DNA from: Dhillonvirus LF50P3
Reading direction: 5' to 3' (one strand)
Sequence record: OZ035753.1
DNA length: 45,099 bases
The notes under the pieces are model-generated. The model saw only the letters and a program-made list of their open reading frames with translations. It searched no databases and was not told the origin of the DNA. A program made the translations under genes and the position numbers. Of the stretch, positions 29,990-43,650 are shown one piece after another (within the stretch, counting starts at the first letter, position 1; every line of letters starts with the position of its first letter).

Positions 29990-30017
29990 AAATGGCGGGA
30001 CAAGCCCGCCGTATTAA

Positions 30018-30191: not shown

Positions 30192-30231
30192 TTCTAAAAT
30201 CCTCGTTAGTGCTAACCTGCTCACTATACTG

Positions 30232-30702: not shown

Positions 30703-32994
30703 TTACTTCCTGTACCTGTACATAATGTCGCCTTCGGCGGCAAGTGGGAAGCCTTTCGCCCAAATAGGCAGGTCGCACATCAGCGCGCAAAGCTCCTCGG
30801 TCGTGTAGTCGTCGGTGTCCGGCACTTCTGTGATCAATTCGTCGTGTACTGACAGGACGATTTCATACCCCGCAGCTTCAACGCCAGGCATGGACCATGC
30901 GAGAATATCGCGACACAACGCCTGTACGATGTTCTCCGTCAGTTTGCCGCCGTAGGTATACTGGAATCCCCACTGGCGCGTCGTCTGATTCTCGCCCTGA
31001 TATTTAATGCGTGTGCTGGTGCGCTTCTTGCCGGTGTCTTCGTCAATCTCGGTAGTGACAGACAGCGCGATGCCCGGGTAGCTCATGATGCGCCCCGACG
31101 GCAACTCAATTTTCAACCACCAACCGGCGGCGTTAGGGTCGTCGCGCTCCTCGTCGAAGGTTGGGTCGTGCTTCGCCTTCGTACGGACAATCTTGAGCGC
31201 TTTTCTACCGTCCGGGCGAACGTTCGCGCCCGCCCAGTATGCTTTGCCCGGATTGCGGATTGCACACAACACCGCGTCCTCAAGCTCGGCCCAAAAGGCT
31301 ACCGTCTTCGGGTGAGCCTCACGCCACATACGTTTGATTGCGTCACAAGTAAGCCATACGTTTTTCGGCAGTATGTATGTTGGGCGCTCGTCTTTCTTAC
31401 CTGGCTTCGGTGGGCGTTTCGCTTCGTTAATGCGGGCGTACTCATAACCACGTTTCGCCGCCGCCCAAATGTGATCCGGGAACGTGCCTTTCATCACGTC
31501 CGCCATAGTGTAAAGGTCGAGGCCCAGGTTTTTAGCGAACTGCAAGAACGCCGCGACGCCGCCACCATAGCCCAGTCCCAATTCGCACGCCTTACCAATC
31601 TGGCGTAAGTCCTTGCGGTTGGCTTTAATGTAATCCGGGTCCAGGCCGAACATCTTACCGGCAGTCTCACAATAGATATCGCGACCGGCCTTAAACACCA
31701 TGAGCGCTGTTTTCTCGCCCGCGATCCAGGCAAGGCCACGCCCTTCCACGTTGGAGTAGTCCGCTACGACAAACTTCTTGCCCTTCGCCGGAATAATGCA
31801 CCCGCGAACGGTCGAGGCGGTTAGCTTCGATATGTCATACGCCCAGTGCGCGGTCCCGCGTAACAGGGAGTTGATGCCGTTGGTGAGCATGTGCGACCGG
31901 ACCCAAAACGAGACGTCGCTTTCGCCTTCGCGGCGCTTAATCTTACCTTCGTGGTCGTCGCTATACTCGCCGCGTGCCAGGTTTTGAGGCTGAAAGCCTT
32001 TACCGGCCCAGCGCAGCGTGCGCTTTGCGCCGCCATACTGAAGACACCCACGGCGGCGACCATCGGCAGACAGGCCATTAACGAGCGGATTGTATTTAGT
32101 CGATGCCGTTGATGACGCTCCGAGGCGCATTTCGATAAGCGCTTTGCCCTCGTCGGGGAAGTCCGGGTCTTCAAGCAGGTCGTTAAGTGTGGATTTCTGC
32201 GCGTTGTGGATCGTGAACGCTGGGGCGATATCACGCAGGATTGGCAGGAAATCATTGCCGGTCAGCTTACCGCCAAATCGCTCCCAGGCTTCTTCCTTCA
32301 ATTCTTCCTTATGCGCCTGCACCGCTTTGATCGCGGCGTTCGCCAGGTCAACGTCCACATAGAAGCCGCGGTCGTTGATCAACTGGTCGATAAGCAGGAT
32401 TTCATCTTCCTTCGGAGTATTACCCCAGTCCGGTATGCGCCAGTAGACTTCACGCATTGCGATAATATCCAGCGCGGCATAGCGCAGAAATTTGGCCCAT
32501 TCTTCCGGGTGAGTCTCGCGAGTGTAGCGGCGTATTTTGTAGGTCTTAGGGGTAGGCTTACAGAATCGTTTAATCAGCGCCTTGCCTGCCTTATCCTTCG
32601 CGTGCTCTGCGTCAACGCCCAGCACCTGGCACTGCATATCGAGGCTACCCGGCAGCGCGTGGCGAAAGGCCATAATCATGGTGTCTTCGATCTGGCTTAC
32701 CGGCAGGTCGATGCCCCACTTCTCACGGATAACCAGGCGGTCAAACAGGAGGCCGTTAGCCATCACTATTTTTGCTTTCTTGCGGGATACATGGCGGAGC
32801 GCCTTGCGCAGTTCACGCGGCATTGTGGGGGATTCAGTGCAATCCCATGTCTGCACGCGGCCTTCGTCGATGGCGTAGGTGCAAATCATAATCTCGGTTG
32901 TTGGGTGCTCCGCGTAGGCGTACGCCCCAACTTTCTTCAGGTCCACCCCGCTAAATGTCTCGGTATCGAGAAACAGGCGTTCGAAGTCTTTCAT
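30703..32994 (-). CDS. DNA polymerase, family A, with N-terminal 3'-5' exonuclease domain
   Basis: 763-aa ORF: exonuclease motif LFLDTETFS; polymerase motif A VVADYSNVEGRGLAWIAGE; motif B RQIGKACELGLGYGGG; motif C VLSVHDELITE. Confidence 0.85.
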   Translation of the reverse strand: MKDFERLFLDTETFSGVDLKKVGAYAYAEHPTTEIMICTYAIDEGRVQTWDCTESPTMPRELRKALRHVSRKKAKIVMANGLLFDRLVIREKWGIDLPVSQIEDTMIMAFRHALPGSLDMQCQVLGVDAEHAKDKAGKALIKRFCKPTPKTYKIRRYTRETHPEEWAKFLRYAALDIIAMREVYWRIPDWGNTPKEDEILLIDQLINDRGFYVDVDLANAAIKAVQAHKEELKEEAWERFGGKLTGNDFLPILRDIAPAFTIHNAQKSTLNDLLEDPDFPDEGKALIEMRLGASSTASTKYNPLVNGLSADGRRRGCLQYGGAKRTLRWAGKGFQPQNLARGEYSDDHEGKIKRREGESDVSFWVRSHMLTNGINSLLRGTAHWAYDISKLTASTVRGCIIPAKGKKFVVADYSNVEGRGLAWIAGEKTALMVFKAGRDIYCETAGKMFGLDPDYIKANRKDLRQIGKACELGLGYGGGVAAFLQFAKNLGLDLYTMADVMKGTFPDHIWAAAKRGYEYARINEAKRPPKPGKKDERPTYILPKNVWLTCDAIKRMWREAHPKTVAFWAELEDAVLCAIRNPGKAYWAGANVRPDGRKALKIVRTKAKHDPTFDEERDDPNAAGWWLKIELPSGRIMSYPGIALSVTTEIDEDTGKKRTSTRIKYQGENQTTRQWGFQYTYGGKLTENIVQALCRDILAWSMPGVEAAGYEIVLSVHDELITEVPDTDDYTTEELCALMCDLPIWAKGFPLAAEGDIMYRYRK

Positions 32995-33161
32995 TGCTTT
33001 ATCCTCACTACGGCGTCAGCGCTGCCGATCATGGAGAAGATGCCGTCGGACAGGGCGATTTCTTCGCCGTTGTTGCGAATCTCGGCAACTGTGAAATATT
33101 CCCCCAGTAGCTTGGACCATACTTGCATTCCGACTTTTACTTCGCTGGCTTTAATACGCAT
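32991..33161 (-). CDS. hypothetical small protein translationally coupled to the polymerase
   Basis: 56-aa ORF (MRIKASEVKVG...) whose TGA stop overlaps the polymerase ATG (ATGA junction). Confidence 0.4.
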   Translation of the reverse strand: MRIKASEVKVGMQVWSKLLGEYFTVAEIRNNGEEIALSDGIFSMIGSADAVVRIKQ

Positions 33162-33177
33162 TTTTCATTGTCCTATT

Positions 33178-33199
33178 AAAAAGCCCGCATTAAGCGGGC
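33178..33199 (-). terminator. intrinsic terminator candidate after the SSB gene
   Basis: Minus-strand hairpin AGCCCGC-ttaat-GCGGGCT followed by TTTTT, downstream of the SSB stop at 33220. Confidence 0.5.
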
Positions 33200-33219
33200 T
33201 TGAATAGTGGGCTTTGCCC

Positions 33220-34002
33220 TTAACGGCGGCGACGTTTACGTGGCGCTTCGTCTTCGTCGTCGTCCTCATCTTCGTCATCGCGTGGCTTACGACGTTTGCG
33301 AGGTTTTTCATCTTCCTCATCGTCGTCGTCATCGCGGCGCTTGGATTTCTTGGACTTGCGCGGCTTGTCATCTTCGTCATCGTCATCACGACGTTTTGAC
33401 TTTTTGGACTTGCGCGGGCTTTCGTCTTCGTCATCGTTGTCCAGGTCTTCGTCGGAACATGAAGACCCGCCACCTCCGAAGGCTTCGCCGTCTTCACGGA
33501 ATCGCAGACCCAGCAAGCCAGCCCCGAGTCCCTTGCCGTTGGTATTGTTCCACGCCCAAATATCCAGGGACACATTGCAATAACAACCGGAGTAGATCTC
33601 CTGGCCTTCGATCTCGTCACCTTCTACGGTCAGACCTTGTTCCGTCTGCTTCTCGCCGAGTGACGTTTGAATGATCGGCTGTTTGAACGATTTGGCGTTG
33701 ATATACAACATGCCTTCGAATTCTTCGGTTACTTCATCGCGCTCGTCGCCGTCGCGCACTGCGCATTCCTTAGAATCCTGGGCGTAGTGGCGGTCCATCC
33801 ACTTATCGGCATTCTTCTCGGATTTCAGCTTGTCGGTGAGCACTGCGCGCGCTGCCGCTTCCACTTTGTCCACCTGCGGATCTTCTTTATCCAGAAGAAT
33901 CACGGCACGGTATGCCGGTTTTTGTCCATCCTGTTTAGGGGTATCACGTTCCCAAATTTTCAGGAAGCATACGCGCACATTTTTCAGGTTGACTTTAGCC
34001 AT
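33220..34002 (-). CDS. single-stranded DNA-binding protein, DUF2815-like (T7 gp2.5-type) with repetitive charged tail
   Basis: N-terminus MAKVNLKNVRVCFLKIWE typical of the DUF2815 phage SSB family; the C-terminal 80 residues are alternating poly-Asp/Glu and Lys/Arg blocks encoded by DNA-level tandem repeats. Confidence 0.6.
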   Translation of the reverse strand: MAKVNLKNVRVCFLKIWERDTPKQDGQKPAYRAVILLDKEDPQVDKVEAAARAVLTDKLKSEKNADKWMDRHYAQDSKECAVRDGDERDEVTEEFEGMLYINAKSFKQPIIQTSLGEKQTEQGLTVEGDEIEGQEIYSGCYCNVSLDIWAWNNTNGKGLGAGLLGLRFREDGEAFGGGGSSCSDEDLDNDDEDESPRKSKKSKRRDDDDEDDKPRKSKKSKRRDDDDDEEDEKPRKRRKPRDDEDEDDDEDEAPRKRRRR

Positions 34003-34092
34003 TTTCCAATTCCTCATTTTCACATATATCGGGGTTATTGGAAGCCACCCCGTTCGGCTTGGTTGCCAATTTACTTGGTTGCGCCTAAGCGG

Positions 34093-34335
34093 TCAAGCAT
34101 TTTCATTAAAAAGATTTCTGGTAACGTAGTCGGTAGCGTTCTCGATCCAGCTTAATGGCGGGCGGTCGATATTCTTCGCCCCCCAATCGGCGGCAGCTTC
34201 GCTATATCCGTCATCCAGCCAGCGGGTCGGATGCCGAATCATCCACGCCACCCTTAACACGCCATGCACACAATGCAGGATAAAGCCCAGCGCGCCGATA
34301 ACAAACATCAATAATATTGCGAATACTTTATTCAT
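34093..34335 (-). CDS. hypothetical membrane protein
   Basis: 80-aa ORF with N-terminal hydrophobic helix VFAILLMFVIGALGFILHCV. Confidence 0.4.
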   Translation of the reverse strand: MNKVFAILLMFVIGALGFILHCVHGVLRVAWMIRHPTRWLDDGYSEAAADWGAKNIDRPPLSWIENATDYVTRNLFNENA

Positions 34336-35758
34336 TGCTTAAGTCCTCGTCAGTAGCTACAGGCCACGCAGGGCGCGGGTCGTCGATGGGTGCTAATACC
34401 GGTTTAGCTGGTGCGCGCGTTATTTTATCACACAACTTTGCCCACACTTTCGGCTTCTCGTCCTTCAATACCTTCTCGGCATCAGTAGGGCTGAGTAATG
34501 TTTCTTTGTACATAACATCGCGCTTGATCCGGGCCTTCGTGAAGATTTCAATCACTTCGCTTTCGTCCGCCCACTTGCGGATCCCTTCCTTACCGGCAAC
34601 CATTTTGAGGCCCAGCGATTCGCCTTCGCCAGCCATAACCGCCTTGAATACCGCGGACTCTATAGCCTTGATGTGCTGGCGCATTGCGTCTAGACCTTCA
34701 TATGCCTTGCGCAGTTCTGCGGCGGTCATAGCGCCTGGGGCCGCTTCTTTCTTACCACGCTTCGCACGTCGTGCCGCTTTGCGGGCTTCGCGGGCCATAT
34801 TGCGGTCGTGATTGGCGCATTCTTCCTCTGTCGCAATACTCACGTCGTCGCCCAGGTCTTCGTCTGTTGCCGTTGGTGGGGCCATCGTGTCGATTGCGGC
34901 CTTAGCGCGGGCGCTACACTGATCCGCAAATCTGCACCACTGACACGCATCAACGCTCGGTCGGAAGTCGGCACGGGTGAGTCCCTTTTTGCCGCGGGCG
35001 TACGCTTCCAGGGCGGCGATAGCACGCTTGGACGCAAACTTCGCGAATATCTCCAGGGCTTCTACCGAAATATCCCACTCCGACGCCCCGCCGCAATACG
35101 GCTGGAAGATAACCAGGCGCACGGTCGTAATGTCGTACATGGATTGCAGCTTGCGCAGCAGGCCGAGCGCGTACAACATAAGCTGTTTGTTTTCTTTCGC
35201 CTCGACCTTATGTCGTCCCGTCTTCAGGTCGCCAACAATCAGCATGTACGTGCCGTCGGTCTTCTTCATGACCATGACCATATCCGCAGTGCCGAACGTC
35301 TTAACCCGGTTGCCGTCGATCTCGAAGCCAGAGTGTAGGACGCGGGTGAGATCGGCGCGCATCTCAAGCTGAACAAACTCCGCCACTTCGAGTAGCGGTC
35401 GCCAGTGGTCGATGTACGCGTCGCACTGTTTCACCATGTCGTCGTTGACCAGTACGCCGCCTTTCGGTGCTTTCGGGTGCGCCTTTACCGGCCCCTTACC
35501 TTCGTTCTCGACGTAGCACCCTTTGTACGTTTTCGCGGTTATCAGCTTCTCACCGGCGATAATGCGGTTGAGCACGACTTCCGATACGGTGTGCATACTC
35601 GTACCGTTAATAGCCGCTTGCCCGGATTCGTTCGGGATATCTTTTTCCACCACCAGGGCGGCGGGGCAACCCATCCATTTTTTAGCACCGGATGGGCCGA
35701 GTAATGAGTGTTCCGTGTTGCTGCCGGATTGCGTTTTACGTTTTGGTTTAATCGCCAT
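34328..35758 (-). CDS. Cas4/RecB-like PD-(D/E)xK nuclease, DUF2800-like, with C-terminal extension
   Basis: 476-aa ORF with N-terminal GPSGAKKWMGCPAA, central D...E.K-type core (LIVGDLKTG) and cysteine cluster CQWCRFADQC typical of Fe-S-containing Cas4-like nucleases; about 170-residue charged C-terminal extension. Confidence 0.65.
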   Translation of the reverse strand: MAIKPKRKTQSGSNTEHSLLGPSGAKKWMGCPAALVVEKDIPNESGQAAINGTSMHTVSEVVLNRIIAGEKLITAKTYKGCYVENEGKGPVKAHPKAPKGGVLVNDDMVKQCDAYIDHWRPLLEVAEFVQLEMRADLTRVLHSGFEIDGNRVKTFGTADMVMVMKKTDGTYMLIVGDLKTGRHKVEAKENKQLMLYALGLLRKLQSMYDITTVRLVIFQPYCGGASEWDISVEALEIFAKFASKRAIAALEAYARGKKGLTRADFRPSVDACQWCRFADQCSARAKAAIDTMAPPTATDEDLGDDVSIATEEECANHDRNMAREARKAARRAKRGKKEAAPGAMTAAELRKAYEGLDAMRQHIKAIESAVFKAVMAGEGESLGLKMVAGKEGIRKWADESEVIEIFTKARIKRDVMYKETLLSPTDAEKVLKDEKPKVWAKLCDKITRAPAKPVLAPIDDPRPAWPVATDEDLSNE

Positions 35759-35946
35759 TATTCCACCCTTGAAAATTGAGCAATGTAATAATCGTGTTCA
35801 ACATTGGCCCGCTTCGCGGCTTCGTTCATGGTCGGGGCGAGTTCGCAGGCTTGCGTCCAGCAACGAATACAGTCCACATTCATAACAATTTCCGGTTGCT
35901 CGTCGCCGGTGATACGGCAACGAAATAAAACAAAGAATATAGCCAT

Positions 35947-36198
35947 TTATTTTGTCTCCCAGCGATCAATTGTTTTTGCTTCGGATGCAACTGCGAAGCG
36001 AACATATTCCAGATTGGAATCCGCCCAAATATAAAAGTCGGGATTAATAAAGGTGGTGCGCTTAATTTGCGCGGGGGTATTGCGGCGTTTGTCTATTACG
36101 GCAACGCGTGACTGAAAATTGCCGATGCGTTCGAATAGCCAATAATATGGGCGCTGGTCGCGGGAGTCCACCGCCTCGATTAGCGTGAAGCGTGCCAT
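35947..36198 (-). CDS. hypothetical protein
   Basis: 83-aa ORF in the minus-strand early block; no motif. Confidence 0.4.
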   Translation of the reverse strand: MARFTLIEAVDSRDQRPYYWLFERIGNFQSRVAVIDKRRNTPAQIKRTTFINPDFYIWADSNLEYVRFAVASEAKTIDRWETK

Positions 36199-36376
36199 TG
36201 TCTCGTCCTCTAAAAATAGGCCCGCAGATTAGCGGGCCGGATAATATTAATCTTCACCGCCGAGTTGTCTATAAACCTCGTCCGGGTCGTCGCCTCTTTC
36301 TTCGCAGAAGGCGGTGAATGCCGCCCAATTTTCCGCTATGAAATCGAGCATGATTCTCATTTCATAGTCCATGATA

Positions 36377-36895
36377 TTAATCTTCCAGTTCGAAATAAGT
36401 TTCGACGATTTCTTTTAGCTCTTTGTGGAAGTCTTCGACGTCGTCATCTTCCAGCTTAGCGATTGATTTGATCTCGAACGATTCCAGCAGGTCGTCGAAT
36501 TCATCGTTCGCATCGTCGTCATCGCCACCGGCGATAATCGCGGCATACTGCTTGATTTCGTCGCGCATTTCTGCCAGCGGATCGGCATCTTTCTTACCTT
36601 TGCCTTTCGCCGGTGCTTTTTTAGACTTAGCCGGTTTTTCGTCTTCTGCGTCTTCGTCGTCGTCATCTTCTACGACTTCTTTTTTGGCCTTACCCTTCGC
36701 CGGTGCTTTTTTAGCTTTAGCCGGTTTTTCGTCTTCGGCGTCATCGTCGTCATCTTCGGCAACTTCTTTTTTGGCCTTAGACGGCTTCTTGTCTTCCTGT
36801 TTACCAACGGCAGCGCCAACGGTTTCATAATGCTTTGCAATGGTTTCCAGTGCTACTACGCCGCGAGTGATCAGGTTTACGATTTGCTCAAACAT
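36377..36895 (-). CDS. acidic repeat protein
   Basis: 172-aa ORF from MFEQIVNLITRG with RBS GGAGAT; contains two copies of a Lys/Ala-rich plus poly-Asp/Glu unit (KKPSKAKKEVAEDDDDDAEDEKPAKAKKAPAKGKAKKEVVEDDDDEDAEDEKPAKSKKAPAKGKGKK) from a DNA tandem repeat, then a very acidic C-terminus. The listed start at 37075 runs into the intergenic region and was trimmed. Confidence 0.55.
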   Translation of the reverse strand: MFEQIVNLITRGVVALETIAKHYETVGAAVGKQEDKKPSKAKKEVAEDDDDDAEDEKPAKAKKAPAKGKAKKEVVEDDDDEDAEDEKPAKSKKAPAKGKGKKDADPLAEMRDEIKQYAAIIAGGDDDDANDEFDDLLESFEIKSIAKLEDDDVEDFHKELKEIVETYFELED

Positions 36896-37132
36896 GGTAT
36901 ATCTCCGATTGGTTAAGTTTAGGTGTCGGCAGTTAACTTCGTCGGTGGCCTTAACATATTGCCAGGTTACGCGTTCTCCCGTTCGGGTAGTGGACCTGGT
37001 TATATAATCACGGTTGGGAATCCTGACACTTCGATCCGGCCCCTGCGTTGCCCCTCTCCAGTTTGCGTCCTGCATCCTGTCGACGGGGGGAATAATAGAT
37101 TGGTTGCAGGATGGGTGTCAACAACTAATTTC

Positions 37133-37167
37133 AAAAAAAAAGCGCCGAGGCAAAATGCGACGGCGCT
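37133..37167 (-). terminator. orphan minus-strand intrinsic terminator in a divergent intergenic region
   Basis: Plus strand shows A9 then AGCGCCG-aggcaaaatgcga-CGGCGCT; on the minus strand this is a 7-bp GC-rich stem followed by U9. No minus-strand CDS ends here. Confidence 0.55.
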
Positions 37168-37237
37168 AACCAATAAGAGACAATGAGACGGGAATTATTA
37201 TTACACGCGTGCGCGCCCGTTTCAATATCCAAAGGAT

Positions 37238-37266
37238 TTGACACAGTGCAGTTTTGGGTGTAGTTT
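37238..37266 (+). promoter_or_regulatory. sigma70-like promoter candidate for the HTH gene
   Basis: Consensus -35 TTGACA, 17-nt spacer, -10-like TAGTTT; about 30 nt upstream of the ATG at 37298 with RBS GAGGG. Confidence 0.4.
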
Positions 37267-37297
37267 CGTTGGTCATTAACCAACTGAGGGCAGAGCA

Positions 37298-37627
37298 ATG
37301 AATGTAAACGACGCAATCGAAATGTTAACGAAGACTGTTTGCAGTGAGACAAGCCGGTCATGGGCATATACCGATGCCGTGGGGGCTGTGTTATTTGAAA
37401 TCGAACGACTGCGGCTTACCGAAAAAGAATTGCGCGCCAGGCTGGAACTACTCAACGGTACAGCAGCAAGCAAGCTGCAAAAACACAATGAAGAAATGGA
37501 AGAATACAAAAAGCAGGTTATCCGTTTGCGCGCCGAGGGCAAATCTTGGGCGATGATTGCCGAGTTGACCGGAATTAATCAGAGCACAGTGCGCTCCTGG
37601 GTACGCAATAATAAAACTTCTAAGTAA
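37298..37627 (+). CDS. small helix-turn-helix DNA-binding protein (putative transcriptional regulator)
   Basis: 109-aa ORF; coiled-coil-like middle and C-terminal HTH-like segment KSWAMIAELTGINQSTVRSWVRN; first gene of the right-hand plus-strand block. Confidence 0.6.
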   Translation: MNVNDAIEMLTKTVCSETSRSWAYTDAVGAVLFEIERLRLTEKELRARLELLNGTAASKLQKHNEEMEEYKKQVIRLRAEGKSWAMIAELTGINQSTVRSWVRNNKTSK

Positions 37628-37637
37628 GGCCACGGCA

Positions 37638-39902
37638 ATGAGCTTGATTAAATTCGCTATAACAAAACCCGCTAAAAAAGGCGAAAAAGCCAGGGCGGAA
37701 AACTTCCAGATGACGACCGATGAGTTTTTCGAATTTATCAAAGATGCGAAAGAAATCTCCTCGGTGCATATCAACAAGACGGAAGATAAAGCCGAGTATG
37801 CGCGCCGCAAGCGTAAGGCCGATGGCATCGTGGCGTATACCAGTGACGGATTGCGTCGTAAGACCAGTGCGGTGGACCGCTCGATCCTGTTCTTTGATAT
37901 TGACCGCACCGACACCCGCACCCTGCGCCGCTGCCGTAAGGCGTTCATCGACGCGGGACTGGAGCACGTCTTCCACACCACTACCGGCGACCGCCACCCG
38001 CTGAAAGGCGGCACGCGTTGCGCTCGTTTCCTGGTGCTCACTGACAAGCCTGTACCGGCGGAAGACCTGGGCCGCGTCCAGTATGCACTATTACACCAAC
38101 TGGGCCTGTCAGATGTGGACTTCGACGATTGCACGAAAGACACAAACCGCCTTATGTACCTGCCTCACCAGCAATCGGTTGTTAAGTGTCACTACGGCAA
38201 ACGCGCCCGCGTCCGTCGTCTTCTTCGCCTGGCTGATAAGCTGGGAGTGGAAAAAGAGGAAGTACGCCGCGAACTAACCCAGGGCGATGACGGCGTGGCG
38301 GACGGTATTCTGGATTGGTGCTTCCAGGCGGGATTCGAACCGCTGTCGTCCGGTCGTGGTTATGAAGTGCCGTGCCCTAACGAACACCTGCATAGCGGCG
38401 AAGGGTCAACCGCTATCATGGTTAAGGATGGCGAGATCCGTTTCAAGTGTATGCACACCGGCAACGAGTGTTGCTCGGAACTGAATAGACACCAGCACCT
38501 GGCGCTACGTCTTATCGGGATCCCGGACCACCTGAACGTCGAACCGCACAACATGTCACGTAAGCAAATCGCCGCCATCCTTCCGGGACTGGACGATGAG
38601 GAAGTGGAATCGTGCTACGAACATATCGTTGATGCGGTCGGAGACGGCGACGAGTACGGCGTATGTACAGATGCAGACCTGGACAACGAGCCGGTTGCTC
38701 TGTTCAGTAAGCACGACCCGATCATCGAGGGGCTGATTAACTTCAAATCGACCTGGTATCTGGCTGGCGAGTCGAACATCGGTAAATCGTTCTACGTGCT
38801 GGGCCAGATGGCGTCAGTATCTGCCGGTATTCCGTTCGGCGGCGCGAAGGTCGTCCAGTCTCATTGCTTCTATTTCGACGCGGAAGGTGGCGAAGCCTCC
38901 AACCAGCGTAAGGAGGCATTGCAGATTAAATATGAGCACGACCTGGACAAGCTGCACATTATCGATCTGCAATCACGCGGCTGGGATATCACCAGCAAAT
39001 CCGGCTTGCGTGAAGTTATCAGCTTCATCAACCGCACCGCTAACGGCGAGCCGGTTGGCCTGGTGGCGTTCGACTCACTCAACCAGACTGTTGCGCTGCG
39101 GTCCGCCGATGCAAAACCGTTCGACGAGAACAACGCCAGCGATATGGGCGAAGTGGTCAAAGCGCTGAAGGCCATTGCGGAAAATACAGGCGGCAGTGCG
39201 GGCGTCATCCACCACCCGGCGAAAGGTGCAAACGGCAGCAGATCCCCCCGCGGGTCCGGCGCGCTGCATGGTGCTGTTGATTCTGCGTTCTTCCTGGAGC
39301 AACCGGACGACAACCAGCCAGGCCAATTGAACCTGTATCACGAAAAGGCACGTAACGGCATCAAGCAAGCGCCGCGCGGCTTCGTCCTGCTCAAGTGCAA
39401 GGTTAAGGTGGATCTCCGCAAGTCCGAAGCGTTCGAAGCCCACCAGTCCACCAGCGCCGGGCCAGACTTCGGCGATGTGGTTGCCGGTTGGGACGTCAAG
39501 CCGATTGCATCCACGCCACGCGACGAGACTCTGTACCTCGTACCGGTCGCCCTGGCACCGTTCGCTATTGAACAGGCGAAGGCTGCGGGCAAAGCAGCAG
39601 TTAAGGAAGAGAACGCCGCAGGGCCGCGCAACGAAAAAGAGAAAGTGCTTTATGCAGCACTGGAAAAACTGATGGAAGATAACCCGGACCATACCGGATT
39701 CAGCAAATCGGCAATTGTCCGCCAGGCTGGGCTTGCGAAAGGTGGCACATCTACGAAGGCAATAGACGATATGGTCGAGCGCGGCGTGCTTGGGTTTTAC
39801 ACAGACCCACACACCGGGGCCATCTATGGGTCGTCTAATATCGTCATCAAAACGAACATACCCATCACGCTTTCGGCTACCGATGACGACCTGAAAGATT
39901 AA
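37638..39902 (+). CDS. DNA primase/helicase fusion
   Basis: 754-aa ORF: N-terminal primase-like region with acidic cluster LFFDIDRTD, a Cys/His cluster (CPNEHLH...CMHTGNECC) and a C-terminal RecA/DnaB-like ATPase with Walker A GESNIGKS and Walker B-like LVAFDSL. Confidence 0.8.
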   Translation: MSLIKFAITKPAKKGEKARAENFQMTTDEFFEFIKDAKEISSVHINKTEDKAEYARRKRKADGIVAYTSDGLRRKTSAVDRSILFFDIDRTDTRTLRRCRKAFIDAGLEHVFHTTTGDRHPLKGGTRCARFLVLTDKPVPAEDLGRVQYALLHQLGLSDVDFDDCTKDTNRLMYLPHQQSVVKCHYGKRARVRRLLRLADKLGVEKEEVRRELTQGDDGVADGILDWCFQAGFEPLSSGRGYEVPCPNEHLHSGEGSTAIMVKDGEIRFKCMHTGNECCSELNRHQHLALRLIGIPDHLNVEPHNMSRKQIAAILPGLDDEEVESCYEHIVDAVGDGDEYGVCTDADLDNEPVALFSKHDPIIEGLINFKSTWYLAGESNIGKSFYVLGQMASVSAGIPFGGAKVVQSHCFYFDAEGGEASNQRKEALQIKYEHDLDKLHIIDLQSRGWDITSKSGLREVISFINRTANGEPVGLVAFDSLNQTVALRSADAKPFDENNASDMGEVVKALKAIAENTGGSAGVIHHPAKGANGSRSPRGSGALHGAVDSAFFLEQPDDNQPGQLNLYHEKARNGIKQAPRGFVLLKCKVKVDLRKSEAFEAHQSTSAGPDFGDVVAGWDVKPIASTPRDETLYLVPVALAPFAIEQAKAAGKAAVKEENAAGPRNEKEKVLYAALEKLMEDNPDHTGFSKSAIVRQAGLAKGGTSTKAIDDMVERGVLGFYTDPHTGAIYGSSNIVIKTNIPITLSATDDDLKD

Positions 39903-39977
39903 ATCCTGCGCGCATTGGTTGCCGATATGGGAATTCCCATATCGCTAAATGGTTAAATTTTGCGCGCATTGGTTGCC
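39901..39977. repeat. 23-bp direct repeats flanking a perfect 22-bp palindrome
   Basis: AAATCCTGCGCGCATTGGTTGCC (39901–39923) and AAATTTTGCGCGCATTGGTTGCC (39955–39977); between them CGATATGGGAATTCCCATATCG (39923–39944) is its own reverse complement; a third partial copy GTATTGGTTGCCG at 40001–40013. Confidence 0.7.
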
Positions 39978-40062
39978 ATTTTGAGTGTTTTTATCAGGTC
40001 GTATTGGTTGCCGTGTAGTGTGAATATAGTGAATAGTTATGCAGTTTTGTTGCATAAAGTAA

Positions 40063-40219
40063 GCGGGACAGAAAGCGGGACAAACAAGGGGCGGGACAAA
40101 GCGGGACAGCACCCCCGTCCCGCCCCGGATGGCGCGGCCTGGAGAGGAGCGGGACAGGCGGGACAACCCCCAGTCTTTCAGACTAGACGGGGGTCAATGG
40201 CCCCCCTCGTCTGAGACTG
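40063..40219. repeat. CGGGAC(A) motif array and long stem-loop (copy 2)
   Basis: GCGGGACA at 40063, 40075, 40091, 40101, 40149 and 40158, then the hairpin CAGTCTTTCAGACTAGACGGGGGTCAATGGCCCCCCTCGTCTGAGACTG (40171–40219); near-identical to 11576–11737. Confidence 0.7.
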
Positions 40220-40379
40220 AATAAAATCCGGGGATTGCAAAACACACGGCAGCATGATGCGAAGTTCGGTCGTCGACGAACTAGGCAACCAATGCGGGTC
40301 GCATTATGCCGAGTGAAAAATGCAGTTTGCAGCCACAGCGGATAGCGATCAACTTTTTCATGCGCGTGATTAACATTGG

Positions 40380-40408
40380 TTGCACCCTACCTGGCACCCT
40401 GCTATATT
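40380..40408 (+). promoter_or_regulatory. sigma70-like promoter candidate with conserved leader
   Basis: TTGCAC (inside ATTGGTTGCAC), 17-nt spacer, TATATT, then TTGGTTGCACACCAACGTGAGGAC...ATG at 40437; the -10 and leader closely match 5797–5831 on the minus strand. Confidence 0.45.
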
Positions 40409-40436
40409 GGTTGCACACCAACGTGAGGACTGAACA

Positions 40437-40742
40437 ATGAAAGCGATTATCTGGAATTACGCAATGGCCCTGGCAAAGCTGAACGAAGCGAAAGCGCTGA
40501 ACGGCAACGTAGACCGTGCGCGCCAGTTTGCGACACTGGCATACCAGTCAATCATGTGTGCGCTAGACGATATGGACGCCAGCATGGATGACCTGGGTCC
40601 GCTGCGTAAGGCAATCCATGAATACGCGCTGGCATTCTCCCGTGAGCGCCTGGCTTATCGCTTCGGTATTGGCGAGAAGGCAGTGACAAACGTCGCCAGG
40701 ATTAAAGCCCAGCGTGAGCTATTCGCCCAGCTTGCGAAATAA
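40437..40742 (+). CDS. hypothetical protein
   Basis: 101-aa ORF with RBS GAGGAC and the promoter candidate just upstream. Confidence 0.5.
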   Translation: MKAIIWNYAMALAKLNEAKALNGNVDRARQFATLAYQSIMCALDDMDASMDDLGPLRKAIHEYALAFSRERLAYRFGIGEKAVTNVARIKAQRELFAQLAK

Positions 40743-40751
40743 GGGGCCAAA

Positions 40752-41021
40752 ATGGGACGTAGACGAGCAAAACAGCTTTCGTGGCATATTCCCCTGCATT
40801 GCATACGAATATGGGCTAAGAATGCGACTGAGGGCGATTCTGTATTCTGGTGCTATCGCGATGACGTAAAGCCACTGACGCAGACTCGCTACTTACACCA
40901 GTTCGCAGCACAACACGATTTCAGGGTGCGGACTTCCTTGCAACCAATGGGAATACGTATTACATTACGCCAGAAGCCCGCCATTGAGCGGGTGGGCAAA
41001 CACTGGAGACTGAGCAAATGA
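40752..41021 (+). CDS. hypothetical protein
   Basis: 89-aa ORF with RBS AAGGGG; ends in the repeated junction GGAGACTGAGCAAATGA. Confidence 0.5.
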   Translation: MGRRRAKQLSWHIPLHCIRIWAKNATEGDSVFWCYRDDVKPLTQTRYLHQFAAQHDFRVRTSLQPMGIRITLRQKPAIERVGKHWRLSK

Positions 41022-41170
41022 TCAAAGTTCAGAGCAAGGCAACCGGTCTGATTTATCTTGTGGTGTGGGAGGGGAACGGAAGCGTAACGCTCATGCACCC
41101 AAAAACCAAATCACGCCACACTATCAGCCAATTTACCCTGAACCAGAACTATCGGAGACTGAGCAAATGA
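41018..41170 (+). CDS. hypothetical small protein
   Basis: 50-aa ORF bounded at both ends by the repeated junction motif, which supplies RBS, ATG and the overlapping upstream stop. Confidence 0.4.
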   Translation: MIKVQSKATGLIYLVVWEGNGSVTLMHPKTKSRHTISQFTLNQNYRRLSK

Positions 41171-41319
41171 CACCAATGCAAAGAGCGCTAATGGCGGGAT
41201 TCTCGCAGAAGTTTATTTCGGTAGACGCCTGCATAGCTGATTATGAGATGGACGGCATCGCTACGGTATGCGATGGCGACTATAAGACTGTTGACGAGAT
41301 TGAGGAGACTGAGCAATGA
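41167..41319 (+). CDS. hypothetical small acidic protein
   Basis: 50-aa ORF starting at the second junction ATG and ending in the third junction; the listed 41065 start ignores the junction RBS. Confidence 0.4.
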   Translation: MTPMQRALMAGFSQKFISVDACIADYEMDGIATVCDGDYKTVDEIEETEQ

Positions 41320-41870
41320 GATTACTATTCCGCCGCAAATCAGACGGGCGCATACTGAAGCCGATCCAGACCCTGGATTCCTACGTCCGCTTGCACCACG
41401 CGGCAAGCGATCGGGTATTCCGCGCATCGAAGGGCACATTGCCGCAGTTCTTCGAAGTCCTCACACACGATATTGAGCGCGGCGATGTGTTGCGTGATAT
41501 TCGCGACGGGCAATTGTGGGTCGTGGAGCACACCTCCCAGCACGGCTTGCGGTTGAAGTCCGGTATCTTGTTGAAGGGGATGACGTACTTCGGCCTCGTA
41601 AATTACGAGCGAGTGGGTCGCAAATACAGCCTTCGGGACCGCCAGCCTCATGAGCGCGTGGAGTTCCGCAAGTCGCAGCCCGCGTATGCCACTTACGACG
41701 CGAGCAAAGTGATGGAGCCGATCCGCCAGGCCACGCGTGAGATAGTCAATCGCTTTGATGCCGTGACGAATGCACAGCGCCAGGCGCGGGAATACGGTGT
41801 GGGATTTATCCGTGTCGAACCAGACGGCAGCATGAAGGCCATCGACCCGCGCTCGGTGATTCTGAAATGA
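41316..41870 (+). CDS. hypothetical protein
   Basis: 184-aa ORF starting at the third junction ATG; no motif. Confidence 0.5.
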   Translation: MRLLFRRKSDGRILKPIQTLDSYVRLHHAASDRVFRASKGTLPQFFEVLTHDIERGDVLRDIRDGQLWVVEHTSQHGLRLKSGILLKGMTYFGLVNYERVGRKYSLRDRQPHERVEFRKSQPAYATYDASKVMEPIRQATREIVNRFDAVTNAQRQAREYGVGFIRVEPDGSMKAIDPRSVILK

Positions 41871-42089
41871 GTGCGTCTATCCGTGATATGCTCATGCACA
41901 ACCGCTTTGAGATAGGCGGTCGGGTGTTTCGCAATTACTTCGTGGCGCGTGCATGGGCGCGCCATATTGGCAAACCGGAAGGGGCAATTCGATGCTATAC
42001 GTCTTCGCGGTAGTATGTGGCGGTAGTCTGGCAGCCCTGGTGCTGTTGGCGGCTGTTATTAGTCTGGTTAAATACCTATGGAGCAGATT

Positions 42090-42377
42090 ATGATTCATGA
42101 TGTGATTTATTGGTTTGGTATGGCCAGCATGTTATGCCTGGTTACGGGAGTGCTGGGCGCAATATGGGTATTCCTGGTATGGCCCGCCGTGGAAGCTGCC
42201 AGCATTACCCGGATGACGTTCCAGATATACAAGCGCCGCGGGATCACGGAGCACCCGACCAGGTTGCGCATGTGGTGGCTGTGGTATCGCGATATGATCG
42301 GCGGGCGAATGTTCGAGGCCGTCCGATCGGAAGGGTGGGAGTGGAAAGGCGTCGGCAAGTGGTCCATTTTCGATTAA
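42090..42377 (+). CDS. hypothetical membrane protein
   Basis: ORF with hydrophobic N-terminal helices (WFGMASMLCLVTGVLGAIWVFLVW); alternative start at 42078; followed by a strong terminator. Confidence 0.45.
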   Translation: MIHDVIYWFGMASMLCLVTGVLGAIWVFLVWPAVEAASITRMTFQIYKRRGITEHPTRLRMWWLWYRDMIGGRMFEAVRSEGWEWKGVGKWSIFD

Positions 42378-42395
42378 TTATGCAAGCGTGATATA

Positions 42396-42429
42396 GTCCC
42401 AGTGAGCTAAAACTTACTGGGACTTTTTT
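42396..42429 (+). terminator. intrinsic terminator upstream of the lysis cassette
   Basis: GTCCCAGTGAG...CTTACTGGGAC long stem-loop followed by TTTTTT; the holin ATG follows at 42430. Confidence 0.65.
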
Positions 42430-42720
42430 ATGGATAAGCTAAACGAGTGGTTATTTGCCCTCGCATGTCTGGCAGGCGGCTTCGTAGGCGCACGCATTCA
42501 TGGCGAGGCTACGAAAGGCCCGCTGAACTTCGTTTTATATATCGTAGTTGGCTTCCTGTGCGCCGTATTTGGTGCGCCAGCTATCGCCGAGTGGGCGGGC
42601 TTATCGGGCGAGCGCACTGTCGCCGGTTTGGGCTTCGTAACTGCAATCTTCTGGATGCCAATAGCCGCCCGGATCAGGGAGACTATTGAGTCGTTCCGAC
42701 TTCCGGGGGGCGCAAAATGA
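42430..42720 (+). CDS. holin (putative, three predicted transmembrane helices)
   Basis: 96-aa ORF with three hydrophobic segments and a charged C-terminus; first gene of a holin-holin-endolysin arrangement. Confidence 0.6.
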   Translation: MDKLNEWLFALACLAGGFVGARIHGEATKGPLNFVLYIVVGFLCAVFGAPAIAEWAGLSGERTVAGLGFVTAIFWMPIAARIRETIESFRLPGGAK

Positions 42721-42962
42721 TTATCTCCGTCCTGTTGTTTGTTATCATAGGGGCTTCGTCCCTGTTTAACGTGTATGCGCCGTCCGTCCAGGATGGCATT
42801 TTAGGCCGGGTGTTATATCTGCTAACGGCGATGATCTGCGTTATCGGATTGTTGCAAACAGGAGACGTATCTGACACCACCTGGACCGCGTTAATCTGGC
42901 TGTTTGCATTGCGCACGCTGCGTAATGCTGTTTTGAATGGGGTAAAACATGCGATTCAGTGA
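42717..42962 (+). CDS. second holin-like or antiholin-like membrane protein
   Basis: 81-aa ORF overlapping the holin stop; two or three hydrophobic helices; directly upstream of the endolysin. Confidence 0.45.
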   Translation: MIISVLLFVIIGASSLFNVYAPSVQDGILGRVLYLLTAMICVIGLLQTGDVSDTTWTALIWLFALRTLRNAVLNGVKHAIQ

Positions 42963-43440: not shown

Positions 43441-43456
43441 TACGAGGTAACACAGT

Positions 43457-43618: not shown

Positions 43619-43625
43619 ACTACCA

Positions 43626-43650
43626 AGCCCGGATAATTCCGGGCTTTTTA
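43626..43650 (+). terminator. intrinsic terminator after the lysis block
   Basis: AGCCCGGA-taat-TCCGGGCT stem-loop followed by TTTTT. Confidence 0.7.

What the first reader, a model, noticed from the sequence alone, without database searches (positions are those of the whole stretch)
37133..37228. Candidate small RNA or antisense transcript on the minus strand of the divergent control region
Seen directly: the minus strand has a strong intrinsic terminator (7-bp GC stem, 13-nt loop, U9) at 37133–37167 although no minus-strand coding gene ends there. About 35–60 nt upstream on that strand is a sigma70-like promoter: TTGAAA (plus 37220–37225), 16-nt spacer, TAATAA (plus 37198–37203). Together they predict a transcript of roughly 60 nt lying between the early-left and early-right gene blocks and upstream of the HTH regulator gene. 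Inference: a regulatory small RNA or a transcriptional insulator.
Basis: partly seen in the sequence, partly recalled or inferred. Interest (0 to 1): 0.5.

Follow-up and report, generated by a model that had tools for sequence, protein, structure and literature searches.

The report
Unannotated small RNA gene in phage control region
Between the two divergent early promoters of this E. coli phage (a Dhillonvirus) lies a conserved, unannotated mini-gene, with its own strong promoter and terminator, that should make a roughly 55-nucleotide RNA whose free 5' end is complementary to the ribosome-binding regions of the phage's first early genes, so it probably tunes early protein synthesis.

Summary
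On the minus strand, TTGAAA (37225-37220), a 17-nt spacer and TGT-AATAAT (37205-37197) lie about 50 nt upstream of the strongest intrinsic terminator on that strand (hairpin 37167-37141, U tract 37141-33). Only three sites in the 45-kb genome match the sigma70 consensus at 10 of 12 or better, and only two T runs reach 8 bases. The window is a Dhillonvirus (HK578-like coliphage). The unit is present in every relative examined, about 50 loci giving 28 distinct versions. The promoter hexamers and the 23-nt 5' tail carry no substitutions, while the 7 nt before the predicted start show 10 variants. The terminator stem exists in three compensating versions. In the most divergent relative the promoter is different, but it sits at the same distance from the conserved CUCAUUGUCU. 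No Rfam family, E. coli homologue or published Dhillonvirus transcriptome was found. The free 5' tail is complementary to translation start regions of promoter-proximal early genes. These are the helicase-primase (12 bp in two divergent lineages), the first leftward gene and the HTH gene. Shuffled seeds rarely match these regions as well. Best reading: a trans-acting, probably Hfq-type small RNA that represses early translation. It is not a cis-antisense RNA. Expression and targets are untested. A separate find: the adjacent P_L leader is a 140-nt structured RNA shared with unrelated siphophages and absent from Rfam.

The parts
37220..37225 (-). -35 hexamer TTGAAA of the small-RNA promoter
   Evidence: Scan. 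It is TTGAAA in 27 of 28 distinct modules and TTGAAC in one. The HK578 GenBank record annotates it as a promoter.
37206..37219 (-). Promoter spacer CGGGCGCGCACGCG, an alternating purine-pyrimidine tract that contains the palindrome CACGCGTG
   Evidence: Six variants were seen: five substitutions, all transitions, plus one 2-nt deletion. The hexamers stay fixed.
37197..37205 (-). Extended -10 element TGT-AATAAT
   Evidence: Scan (TG flag). It is identical in 28 of 28 distinct modules.
37190..37196 (-). Discriminator, untranscribed (AATTCCC)
   Evidence: Ten variants occur in 7 nt across 28 modules. This marks the boundary between the drifting and the fixed sequence.
37134..37189 (-). Predicted small RNA of about 55 nt: 5'-GUCUCAUUGUCUCUUAUUGGUUAGCGCCGUCGCAUUUUGCCUCGGCGCUUUUUUUU, with the start inferred at G37189
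   Evidence: G lies 7-8 nt after the -10 element in all variants. The covariance model finds one copy per genome, at 37134-37187 in the window. The fold is given.
37168..37189 (-). Single-stranded 5' region (seed): two GUCUC units, CAU (anti-AUG) and AUUGGUU. With A37167, the first hairpin base, it forms the 23-nt block counted.
   Evidence: It is unpaired in the MFE and centroid structures. The 23-nt block is identical in 25 of 28 distinct modules, with no substitutions. CUCAUUGUCU is kept in the divergent L017/L129 type.
37141..37167 (-). Terminator hairpin: 7-bp stem, 2x2 internal loop, 3-bp stem, UUU loop
   Evidence: Three stem versions compensate each other: AGCGCCG/CGGCGCU, AUCCCCG/CGGGGAU and AAUCCCCAG/CUGGGGAUU. 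In the pair counts, 88.6% of cells are paired and three pairs changed on both sides. Two GenBank records annotate it as a terminator.
37133..37141 (-). U tract (U9 here, U8 to U14 in relatives). On DNA it also occupies the UP-element position of P_L.
   Evidence: The UP-element role is inferred from position only.
37092..37121 (-). P_L, the leftward early promoter (TTGACA, 18 nt, TATTAT), starting 12 bp after the U tract
   Evidence: It scores 11 of 12. The HK578 record annotates it.
37238..37266 (+). P_R, the rightward early promoter (TTGACA, 17 nt, TAGTTT). Its -35 lies 12 bp from the -35 of the small-RNA promoter, back to back.
   Evidence: Read from the sequence. It is conserved in alignment A1 and annotated in HK578.
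37634..37642 (+). Candidate target: start region of the helicase-primase gene, GGCAAUGAG (AUG at 37638)
   Evidence: It pairs over 9 bp here, over 12 bp perfectly in the L017 type and over 12 bp with one G-U in the L015 type. In all five TIR variants the real seed beats 98-100% of shuffled seeds.
36902..36915 (-). Candidate target: UAACCAAUCGGAGA at the Shine-Dalgarno sequence of the first leftward gene (AUG at 36895)
   Evidence: The inverted repeat with 37167-37180 matches at 12 of 14 positions. Duplex energy is -17.9, p = 0.006 against shuffles.
37276..37303 (+). Candidate target: TIR of the 109-aa HTH gene, UUAACCAACUGAGGGCAGAGCAAUGA
   Evidence: Duplex energy is -19.1, second of 64 TIRs in the window. 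p = 0.005-0.015 in five sequence variants.

Best explanation
This is a stand-alone small-RNA gene. Host sigma70 RNA polymerase starts at about G37189 from a near-consensus promoter with an extended -10 element. It stops about 55 nt later at a strong intrinsic terminator, just before the leftward early promoter P_L. The product has a 22-nt unstructured, C/U-rich 5' tail, a U-rich stretch next to the hairpin and a tail of at least eight U's. This is the standard architecture of enterobacterial Hfq-dependent base-pairing RNAs. The tail reads as the antisense of a translation initiation region: UUGGUUA, then UCUC (anti-Shine-Dalgarno), then CAU (anti-AUG). Most likely it pairs in trans with the ribosome-binding regions of promoter-proximal early mRNAs on both sides and lowers their translation. 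These are the first leftward gene, the HTH regulator gene and the helicase-primase gene. It would thus act as an RNA brake or threshold on immediate-early and replication proteins.

Shown: the sequence elements, their non-random occurrence, their genus-wide conservation, the compensatory stem changes and the statistically unusual complementarity.

Inferred: that the RNA is made, that it binds Hfq, that pairing occurs in vivo, and that the effect is repression.
For: Promoter and terminator.
- The promoter and terminator are as described under the observation check.
- This site is one of only three sites scoring 10 of 12 or better in the genome.
- The terminator is followed by one of only two T runs of 8 or more in the genome.

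Conservation. The window is a Dhillonvirus, and the unit is in all roughly 50 loci examined. Across 28 distinct modules:
- The -35 hexamer is the same in 27 of 28.
- The extended -10 is the same in 28 of 28.
- The 23-nt tail is identical in 25 of 28, with no substitutions.
- The discriminator shows 10 variants.
- The segment between the two -35 hexamers shows 13 variants.
- P_L's own -10 shows 3 variants.

Structure.
- Three compensating stem versions exist.
- Variation is confined to the internal loop and the length of the U run.

The divergent L017/L129 type (helicase-primase 69% identical).
- It has a different promoter, TTGCGC-17-TATTAT, which overlaps P_R.
- It keeps the same 8-9 nt distance from the -10 to CUCAUUGUCU.
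- It keeps a terminator.

The unit is an insertion.
- It is absent from Cornellvirus relatives and from L148.
- In those phages the divergent promoters sit back to back within about 150 bp.

Targets.
- The helicase-primase start region pairs over 12, 12, 9, 8 or 5+3 bp in the five lineage variants. Each gives p = 0.02 to <0.0005 against shuffles.
- In L129 and L077 this is the best non-self match in 14 kb on both strands.
- The TIRs of the first leftward gene and of the HTH gene give p = 0.002-0.015 in eight of their nine sequence variants. The L015-type leftward TIR gives p = 0.058.
- In HK578, which has curated gene starts, gp42-46 rank 3, 8, 7, 16 and 2 of 57 TIRs. Only 0.25% of shuffled seeds do as well.
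- Early TIRs pair better than late ones.
- GAGAC occurs in 7 of 60 TIRs, all in the early regions, against 0.9 expected.
- TTGGTTA occurs only three times in the genome, all in this region. The copies are oriented so that both mRNAs carry UAACCAA and the small RNA carries UUGGUUA.
Against: - No transcript has been observed. No Dhillonvirus transcriptome was found in the paper library.
- The choice of targets is partly post hoc. In the window itself the helicase-primase TIR ranks only 9th of 64.
- In the L006/L007 lineage its pairing is interrupted by a C-U mismatch.
- Any C/U-rich seed that contains CAU will match TIRs better than shuffled versions do.
- The TTGGTT motif also lies in the untranscribed spacer of P_L (37100) and as an inverted repeat at the P_R start. 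It may therefore be a DNA operator, and part of the 'complementarity' could be a by-product of that.
- Host targets could not be searched.
- Hfq binding is inferred from architecture alone.
Confidence: 0.5

Rival explanations
1. This is a transcription-only module that acts as an insulator or interference device. What matters is that polymerase starts and stops here. For example, this could keep upstream polymerases out of P_L and its structured leader, occlude or load P_L and P_R, or supply a T-rich UP element. The RNA itself would be a by-product.
For: The U tract ends 12 bp before P_L's -35 and lies at UP-element position. The -35 of the small-RNA promoter is 12 bp from the -35 of P_R, so polymerases could interact. 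In other siphophages the same type of structured leader is also preceded by a terminator and then a promoter, as in Arya.
Against: A pure start-and-stop device does not need a fixed transcribed sequence. Yet the 23-nt tail has no substitutions in 28 distinct modules, while the adjacent discriminator has 10 variants. CUCAUUGUCU survives a complete change of promoter in L017. The tail is unusually complementary to early TIRs. The only upstream transcription that would need insulating comes from the unit's own promoter.
Confidence: 0.15
2. The conserved tail is a DNA element. It would be an operator array for the 109-aa HTH protein or another regulator, or part of the replication origin, built on the motif TTGGTT(A). 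The promoter and terminator would be secondary.
For: TTGGT(T/C) occurs five times in 405 bp (Poisson p about 1e-4), and all three genomic TTGGTTA copies are here. One copy lies in the untranscribed P_L spacer and is invariant even in L017. An inverted repeat, GTTGGTCATTAACCAAC, sits at the P_R start. The neighbouring gene encodes an HTH_23/sigma-r4-like protein.
Against: The motif covers only 7 of the 23 fixed bases and does not explain GUCUCAUUGUCUC. HK578 and CHD5UKE2 have a different first rightward gene and lack the P_R inverted repeat, yet keep the small-RNA unit unchanged. Compensatory stem changes and a U run of at least 8 point to selection at the RNA level. The L017 type keeps CUCAUUGUCU but not AUUGGUUA. 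The two readings are not mutually exclusive.
Confidence: 0.15
3. This is a leader and attenuator of a second, upstream leftward promoter, resembling lambda P_R'-tR' and its 6S RNA. Transcripts normally stop at the terminator. A phage antiterminator would later let them read through into the 12.5-kb leftward operon and past its internal terminators.
For: A strong constitutive-looking promoter followed at once by a terminator, in front of a long operon, resembles P_R'-tR'. The leftward operon has a strong internal terminator at 36238-36219. The tail contains CUCUUA, which by my recollection, not a test, matches six of the eight bases of lambda boxA (CGCUCUUA).
Against: The operon has its own 11-of-12 promoter directly after the terminator. 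No Q-, N- or other antiterminator family was detected among the neighbouring early proteins, though most have unknown function. This model does not explain the complementarity to TIRs.
Confidence: 0.1
4. A small protein is encoded here, as some GenBank records annotate (47-48 aa on the minus strand).
For: Gene callers placed CDSs across this region in CHD5UKE2 and KarlBarth. The window has a 36-aa and a 78-aa minus-strand ORF here.
Against: One-nucleotide indels occur within the putative frame in several relatives, for example GGGAG-TATT and ATAT(C)CC in L005 and L011-13. The ORF would have to start inside or upstream of P_R, where no promoter exists. It would also run through a terminator. 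The conservation pattern follows promoter, seed and stem, not codons.
Confidence: 0.02

Closest known systems
Hfq-dependent trans-acting small RNAs of enterobacteria and their prophages (for example DicF; the lambda PreS RNA in bioRxiv 10.1101/2024.10.31.621285; the prophage sRNAs in PMC12803456 and PMC13502914)
   Same: It has its own sigma70 promoter, a length of about 50-100 nt and a single-stranded conserved seed. A U-rich stretch sits next to a Rho-independent terminator with a long U tail. The seed is complementary to Shine-Dalgarno and AUG regions.
   Different: It is encoded by a virulent siphophage, in the gap between the two divergent early promoters. It has no sequence or Rfam relationship to any described RNA. 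The predicted targets are the phage's own early genes. Neither expression nor Hfq binding has been shown.
Cis-antisense RNAs of phage control regions: lambda OOP (against cII) and P22 Sar (against ant)
   Same: It is a short RNA of about 70 nt, made constitutively from a small promoter-terminator unit inside the early regulatory region of a phage. Repression of a neighbouring early gene is proposed.
   Different: OOP and Sar overlap their target gene and are fully complementary to it. This RNA overlaps no gene or UTR and has only 8-14 bp of partial, trans complementarity.
Antisense control of replication-protein translation in plasmids (CopA/repA of R1; RNAI of IncB/I plasmids)
   Same: A small, constitutively made RNA would pair with the translation start region of the replication initiator or helicase gene and so set its level.
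   Different: Those RNAs are cis-encoded with complete complementarity and use kissing-loop structures. Here the RNA is encoded 450 bp away, transcribed in the opposite direction, and pairs through an unstructured 5' tail.
Lambda P_R'-tR' 6S RNA (Q antitermination leader)
   Same: A strong promoter is followed within tens of nucleotides by an efficient terminator, upstream of a long operon.
   Different: No Q-like gene was found, and the downstream operon has its own strong promoter directly after the terminator.

Membership tests
Hfq-type trans-acting base-pairing sRNA | Independent promoter and a defined 5' end | tested here: met
   The site scores 10 of 12 with an extended -10 and is one of three such sites in the genome. 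The hexamers are invariant while spacer and discriminator vary, and the fixed block starts at the predicted +1. This is prediction only; no 5' end has been mapped.
Hfq-type trans-acting base-pairing sRNA | Rho-independent terminator with a tail of at least 6-8 U, preceded by a U/A-rich single-stranded stretch (the Hfq-binding module) | tested here: met
   The hairpin has a fold energy of -16.7 kcal/mol and a tail of U8-U14. UCUCUUAUUGGUUA lies immediately 5' of the stem. The stem covaries.
Hfq-type trans-acting base-pairing sRNA | Conserved single-stranded seed | tested here: met
   The tail is unpaired in the MFE and centroid structures of all three types. There are no substitutions in 28 modules. 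CUCAUUGUCU is kept in L017.
Hfq-type trans-acting base-pairing sRNA | Seed pairing with target mRNAs, conserved across relatives | tested here: inconclusive
   Complementarity to early TIRs is significantly better than for shuffled seeds. However, the choice of targets is post hoc, one lineage has a mismatch and host targets could not be searched.
Hfq-type trans-acting base-pairing sRNA | Detected transcript, Hfq association, regulatory effect | not testable with these tools
   No Dhillonvirus infection transcriptome or RIL-seq data set was found.
Cis-antisense phage RNA (OOP or Sar type) | The transcript overlaps a gene or UTR on the opposite strand | tested here: not met
   The transcript (37134-37189) lies between P_L's -35 (37121-37116) and P_R's -35 (37238-37243). 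The nearest plus-strand gene starts at 37298, with a predicted TSS near 37273.
Any described RNA family (Rfam 15) | Covariance-model match at the gathering score | tested here: not met
   There are no matches in the window at gathering threshold. At E up to 10 only weak hits appear, 15-22 bits against cut-offs of 43-72, and they are driven by the terminator.
Lambda-type Q antitermination leader (P_R'-tR') | An antiterminator protein gene and a dependent operon that lacks its own promoter | tested here: not met
   P_L, scoring 11 of 12, follows the terminator directly. No antiterminator family was found among nine neighbouring early proteins. The search of the genome was not exhaustive.

The most novel reading that the evidence does not exclude
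The Dhillonvirus control region carries two unannotated RNA regulators. The first is this 55-nt RNA. It would be an RNA counterpart of a translational repressor such as T4 RegA, shutting down or setting a threshold for translation of immediate-early genes on both sides and of the replicative helicase-primase. Its plus strand, TAACCAA-NNN-GAGA-CA-ATG-AG, reads like a copy of the HTH-gene start region, so it may have arisen by duplication of a target TIR that is now transcribed backwards. The second is the adjacent 140-nt P_L leader. It would be a new class of cis-acting structured RNA, possibly a put-like antiterminator, exchanged among unrelated siphophage genera.
Probability: 0.25. Interest if true: 0.7.

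Novelty: new member of a known kind. Interest (0 to 1): 0.5.

Why it matters
Small RNAs encoded by phages are known mostly from temperate phages and prophages. Very few have been defined in virulent phages, and almost none have a proposed target set within the phage itself. Dhillonviruses are common, easily grown E. coli K-12 phages that belong to the BASEL collection and are used as therapy candidates. A 55-nt gene with a clear prediction can therefore be tested cheaply. The prediction is that seed mutations and compensatory TIR mutations change synthesis of the helicase-primase, the HTH protein and the first leftward protein. If confirmed, it would show an RNA-based control layer on immediate-early and replication genes of a lytic phage. 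It would also add a feature that annotation pipelines currently miss or mis-call as a 47-aa ORF. The neighbouring leader RNA motif lies in about 170 GenBank phage records without annotation. It may be the more novel object and deserves its own study.

Tried and rejected
- **Rfam.** The gathering scan of the whole window and the permissive scan of 36800-37400 found no family.
- **E. coli homologue.** blastn of the unit against 5,426 E. coli genomes found nothing, so it is neither a host nor a prophage homologue.
- **Exact-pattern scan of IMG/VR** for seed plus U run. Only the Dhillonvirus contigs already held were real hits. About 90 others were chance matches without a terminator hairpin.
- **Metagenome scans.** The L129 helicase-primase alone found nothing. 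The two-sequence profile added 12 loci but no new small-RNA type.
- **16-mer scan of genome contigs** for the leader motif. It is uninformative, because about 550 chance hits are expected in 596 Gb. Only one of the returned loci (L245) was a true instance.
- **Genome-wide RNAduplex and G-U-tolerant run scans.** They were too noisy to name targets on their own. TIR-restricted tests with shuffled-seed controls replaced them.
- **Bidirectional terminator.** Rejected, because no T run follows the hairpin on the plus strand.
- **Small ORF.** Rejected, because frame-breaking indels occur within it.
- **MAFFT-based per-column variability.** The alignment was unreliable. Anchored segment counts replaced it.
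- **Literature.** No transcriptome, promoter mapping or small-RNA report for Dhillonvirus or HK578 was found. The one RNA-seq paper that used phage bov25_1D sequenced uninfected cells.
- **Host mRNA targets.** These could not be searched, because no E. coli genome is available to the scripts and BLAST cannot detect 10-nt matches.
Full report
**Context**

The window is a complete or nearly complete genome of a Dhillonvirus, an HK578/EP23/welsh-like virulent E. coli siphophage. A 2-kb query around the finding matches 175 phage records, the best at 97.6% identity. Genes run rightward at 9-24382, leftward at 24409-36895 and rightward again at 37298-45099. The finding therefore lies in the single 400-bp divergent control region. 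To its left is the first leftward gene, with AUG at 36895. To its right is a 109-aa HTH gene (37298-37627, HTH_23/sigma-r4-like), followed by the replicative helicase-primase (37638-39902).

**The observation**

Read directly, the minus strand carries 5'-AGCGCCG UC GCA UUU UGC CU CGGCGCU followed by U's. The hairpin spans 37167-37141 and the U tract 37141-37133.

The '13-nt loop' is really a 2x2 internal loop, a 3-bp stem and a UUU loop. The fold energy is -16.7 kcal/mol, and none of 200 shuffles folds as well (z = -4.3). The seventh, A-U, pair uses the first U of the run.

The scanning tool calls TTGAAA at 37225-37220, a 17-nt spacer and AATAAT at 37202-37197 with an upstream TG. This scores 10 of 12 with an extended -10.

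Three further facts show the arrangement is not a chance match.
- My own scan of both strands of the whole genome finds only three sites at 10 of 12 or better. They are this site, P_L 100 bp downstream (11 of 12) and one at 27741.
- Only two T runs of 8 or more exist in the genome. Each follows a stable GC hairpin.
- The curated HK578 record independently annotates exactly three promoters in its whole genome: P_L, this one and P_R. Two other records annotate the terminator. No record annotates an RNA gene.

The predicted RNA is about 50-57 nt (37189 to about 37134).

**Comparative evidence**

I collected the region from about 50 loci: 15 IMG/VR contigs, 12 metagenome contigs and several GenBank records. 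Anchored segment counts over 28 distinct versions give the following.

| Segment | Variation in 28 versions |
|---|---|
| -35 hexamer | TTGAAA in 27 of 28 |
| TGTAATAAT (extended -10) | identical in 28 of 28 |
| Spacer | 6 variants (transitions or a 2-nt deletion) |
| 7-nt discriminator | 10 variants |
| 12-13 nt between the two -35 hexamers | 13 variants |
| 23-nt transcribed tail GUCUCAUUGUCUCUUAUUGGUUA | identical in 25 of 28, no substitutions (one 1-nt deletion type, one 5-nt duplication) |
| U run | 8 to 13 (up to 14 in the wider locus set) |
| P_L -10 | 3 variants |
| P_L spacer | 8 variants |

The fixed block begins at the G that lies 7-8 nt after the -10 element, which is the predicted +1.

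The terminator stem occurs as AGCGCCG/CGGCGCU in most loci and as AUCCCCG/CGGGGAU in L015, L020, L077 and L146. In L017/L129 it is AAUCCCCAG/CUGGGGAUU. Two positions are therefore changed on both sides between the first two types. The inner 3-bp stem changes from GCA/UGC to UCA/UGA in L017. All other loop variation falls in the internal-loop bases.

On a model-based alignment, 88.6% of cells pair and three pairs have changes on both sides. The covariation score is reached by only 2 of 500 shuffles. Only 7 distinct rows were available, so this is supportive rather than decisive.

L017/L129 is the most informative relative. Its helicase-primase is only 69% identical. The TTGAAA promoter is gone and is replaced by TTGCGC-17-TATTAT, which overlaps P_R. 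Yet CUCAUUGUCU sits at the same 8-9 nt from the -10 element and a terminator follows.

HK578 and CHD5UKE2 carry a different first rightward gene and a different P_R leader, but an unchanged unit. The next relatives lack the unit entirely. These are the Cornellvirus phages VSiA and GRNsp27 (helicase-primase 44% identical) and the metagenomic L148 (47%). In them the divergent promoters sit back to back within about 150 bp. The unit is therefore an insertion specific to the Dhillonvirus lineage and has been maintained under selection.

**What it is not**

- It matches no Rfam 15 family and has no relative in 5,426 E. coli genomes.
- It is not a cis-antisense RNA. It lies upstream of both P_L and P_R and overlaps no gene or predicted UTR.
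- The 47-48-aa ORFs that some records call here are refuted by 1-nt indels in relatives.
- The terminator is one-directional, because no T run follows the hairpin on the plus strand.

**Mechanism**

All three types fold as a free 5' tail plus a terminator hairpin. With a U-rich stretch next to the stem and a tail of at least eight U's, this is the architecture of Hfq-dependent base-pairing RNAs. That comparison rests on established knowledge of the family. Hfq binding was not tested.

The tail is the antisense of a generic translation start region. Its complement reads UAACCAA-UAA-GAGA-CA-AUG-AGAC.

*Helicase-primase start region*.
- The L017 type has GACAAUGAGCAA, 12 perfect base pairs with its own RNA.
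- The L015 type has GAGACGAUGAGA, 12 bp with one G-U.
- The window type has GGCAAUGAG, 9 bp with one G-U.
- HK578, whose TIR is not homologous, has AAUGAGAC 9-16 nt upstream of the AUG, 8 bp.
- L006/L007 have GACCAUGAG, with one C-U mismatch.
- In all five, the duplex energy beats 98-100% of shuffled seeds.
- In the 14-kb loci L129 and L077 this is the best non-self match on either strand.

*First leftward gene and HTH gene.*
- The TIR of the first leftward gene is UAACCAAUCGGAGA. It matches the RNA at 12 of 14 positions.
- The TIR of the HTH gene is UUAACCAAC-N-GAGG/GGAGACA.
- Both pair with UCUCUUAUUGGUUA at p = 0.002-0.015 in eight of nine sequence variants. The L015-type leftward TIR gives p = 0.058.

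*Genome-wide tests in HK578, where gene starts are curated.*
- The five promoter-proximal genes gp42-46 rank 3, 8, 7, 16 and 2 of 57 TIRs.
- Four of the five fall in the top ten (hypergeometric p = 0.002). Only 0.25% of shuffled seeds do as well.
- Their mean energy advantage is 5.6 kcal/mol, against 0 +/- 1.1 for shuffles.
- Early TIRs as a class pair better than late ones.
- GAGAC occurs in 7 of 60 TIRs, all in the early regions, against 0.9 expected.

*The TTGGTTA motif.* All three TTGGTTA copies in the genome lie in this 405-bp region (p = 3e-6). They are oriented so that both mRNAs carry UAACCAA and the RNA carries UUGGUUA.

I therefore consider trans-pairing with early TIRs, probably repressive because it covers the Shine-Dalgarno sequence and the AUG, to be the most likely function.

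**Caveats**

- The target set was chosen after looking at the results.
- In the window the helicase-primase TIR ranks 9th of 64. The HTH gene and the first leftward gene rank 2nd and 3rd.
- A seed that contains CAU and UCUC is biased towards any TIR.
- TTGGTT also occurs in the untranscribed P_L spacer, where it is invariant even in L017, and as an inverted repeat at the P_R start. It may be, or may also be, a DNA operator.
- Host targets could not be examined.

**Rivals**

- *Insulator or interference module.* This reading fits the geometry. The U tract ends 12 bp before P_L's -35, and the two -35 hexamers lie back to back 12 bp apart. It does not explain a fixed transcribed sequence.
- *Operator or origin.* This reading explains the TTGGTT motif. 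It does not explain GUCUCAUUGUCUC, the stem covariation or the persistence of the unit where P_R and its gene are replaced.
- *Lambda P_R'-tR'-like attenuator.* This is made unlikely by the strong P_L directly after the terminator and by the absence of a recognisable antiterminator.

I put 0.5 on the small-RNA, anti-TIR explanation as a whole. I put about 0.75 on the narrower claim that a discrete RNA of about 55 nt is made here.

**Comparison and novelty**

The unit works like an enterobacterial Hfq-type small RNA. It occupies a niche similar to lambda OOP or P22 Sar but fails their defining feature of overlap with the target. It resembles plasmid CopA-type control of replication-protein translation only in logic.

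It is a new, unvalidated member of a known kind. Its parts had been noted piecemeal by annotators, but it has never been described as an RNA gene. No transcriptome of this genus was found.

**Seen in passing, and possibly more novel**

The P_L transcript begins with a structured RNA of about 140 nt (minus strand, about 37085 to 36935). BLAST first showed 52-66-nt matches in unannotated DNA of unrelated siphophages.

Alignment shows the same multi-helix motif directly after a -10-like box in intergenic gaps of five other phages. These are Arya (Jilinvirus), slyngel (Hanrivervirus), Lumpael (Murrayvirus), PHB17 (Changchunvirus) and IME279. It also occurs in several IMG/VR contigs. In GenBank phages it is found in about 171 records.

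RNAalifold predicts 31 pairs, 11 of them with compensatory changes among seven sequences. One stem has a different complementary sequence in each lineage. The motif matches no Rfam family in six sources, and no paper contains its sequence. Some Dhillonviruses lack it through a 135-bp indel but keep the small-RNA unit.

Noticed in passing
window 36935-37085, minus strand (5' leader of the P_L transcript); also L027-L030, L151-L153, L157, L159, L160, L162: The P_L transcript starts with a multi-helix RNA motif of about 140 nt. The same motif lies directly after a -10-like box in intergenic gaps of unrelated enterobacterial siphophages (Jilinvirus, Hanrivervirus, Murrayvirus, Changchunvirus, IME279) and in about 171 GenBank phage records. 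Eleven of 31 predicted pairs have compensatory changes, and one stem differs in every lineage. It matches no Rfam 15 family and its sequence appears in no paper. Some Dhillonviruses lack it through a 135-bp indel. It may be a cis-acting leader, for example a put-like antiterminator, but its function is unknown.
   Followed up: partly
window 36909, 37100, 37173, 37269-37285: The motif TTGGTT(A) is strongly concentrated in the control region, with 5 TTGGT(T/C) copies in 405 bp. All three genomic TTGGTTA copies are here. One copy lies in the P_L spacer and is invariant even in the most divergent relative. An inverted repeat, GTTGGTCATTAACCAAC, sits at the P_R start. These are candidate operators for the 109-aa HTH protein.
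   Followed up: partly
window 37206-37218: The spacer of the small-RNA promoter is a 13-nt perfectly alternating purine-pyrimidine tract (GCGCGCACGCGTG, containing the palindrome CACGCGTG). All variants in relatives keep the alternation, through transitions or a 2-nt deletion. L017 has a comparable GCGCGCGTATA tract inside P_R. This might make the promoter sensitive to supercoiling or able to form Z-DNA, but the pattern is not statistically compelling.
   Followed up: no
window ~11600-11720 and ~40080-40200, plus strand: Two copies of an element of about 120 bp contain GAAAGCGGGACAAAC...GGGACAAAGCGGGACAG and a hairpin, GACGGGGGTCAATGGCCCCCTCGTC. One lies between tail genes and one downstream of the helicase-primase gene (seen in the output).
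   Followed up: no
window 36219-36238, minus strand: A strong intrinsic terminator (7 G-C pairs, then TATTTTT) lies inside the leftward early operon, after its first two genes and immediately before the 83-aa gene. The start region of that gene, GAGACAAUGG, also matches the small RNA. This implies regulated read-through or a separate promoter.
   Followed up: no
window 36377-36895, minus strand (first leftward gene, 172 aa): The protein is highly acidic, with repeated DDDDEDAEDEKPAKxKKAPAKGK units. It belongs to phrog_3127 (unknown function) and has no Pfam match. The welsh record annotates its internal DNA repeat as repeat_region.
   Followed up: no
GenBank records CHD5UKE2 (L021 432-575) and KarlBarth (L023 438-584): Gene callers annotate a 47-48-aa 'hypothetical protein' across the small-RNA unit. 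This is very probably a mis-annotation.
   Followed up: yes
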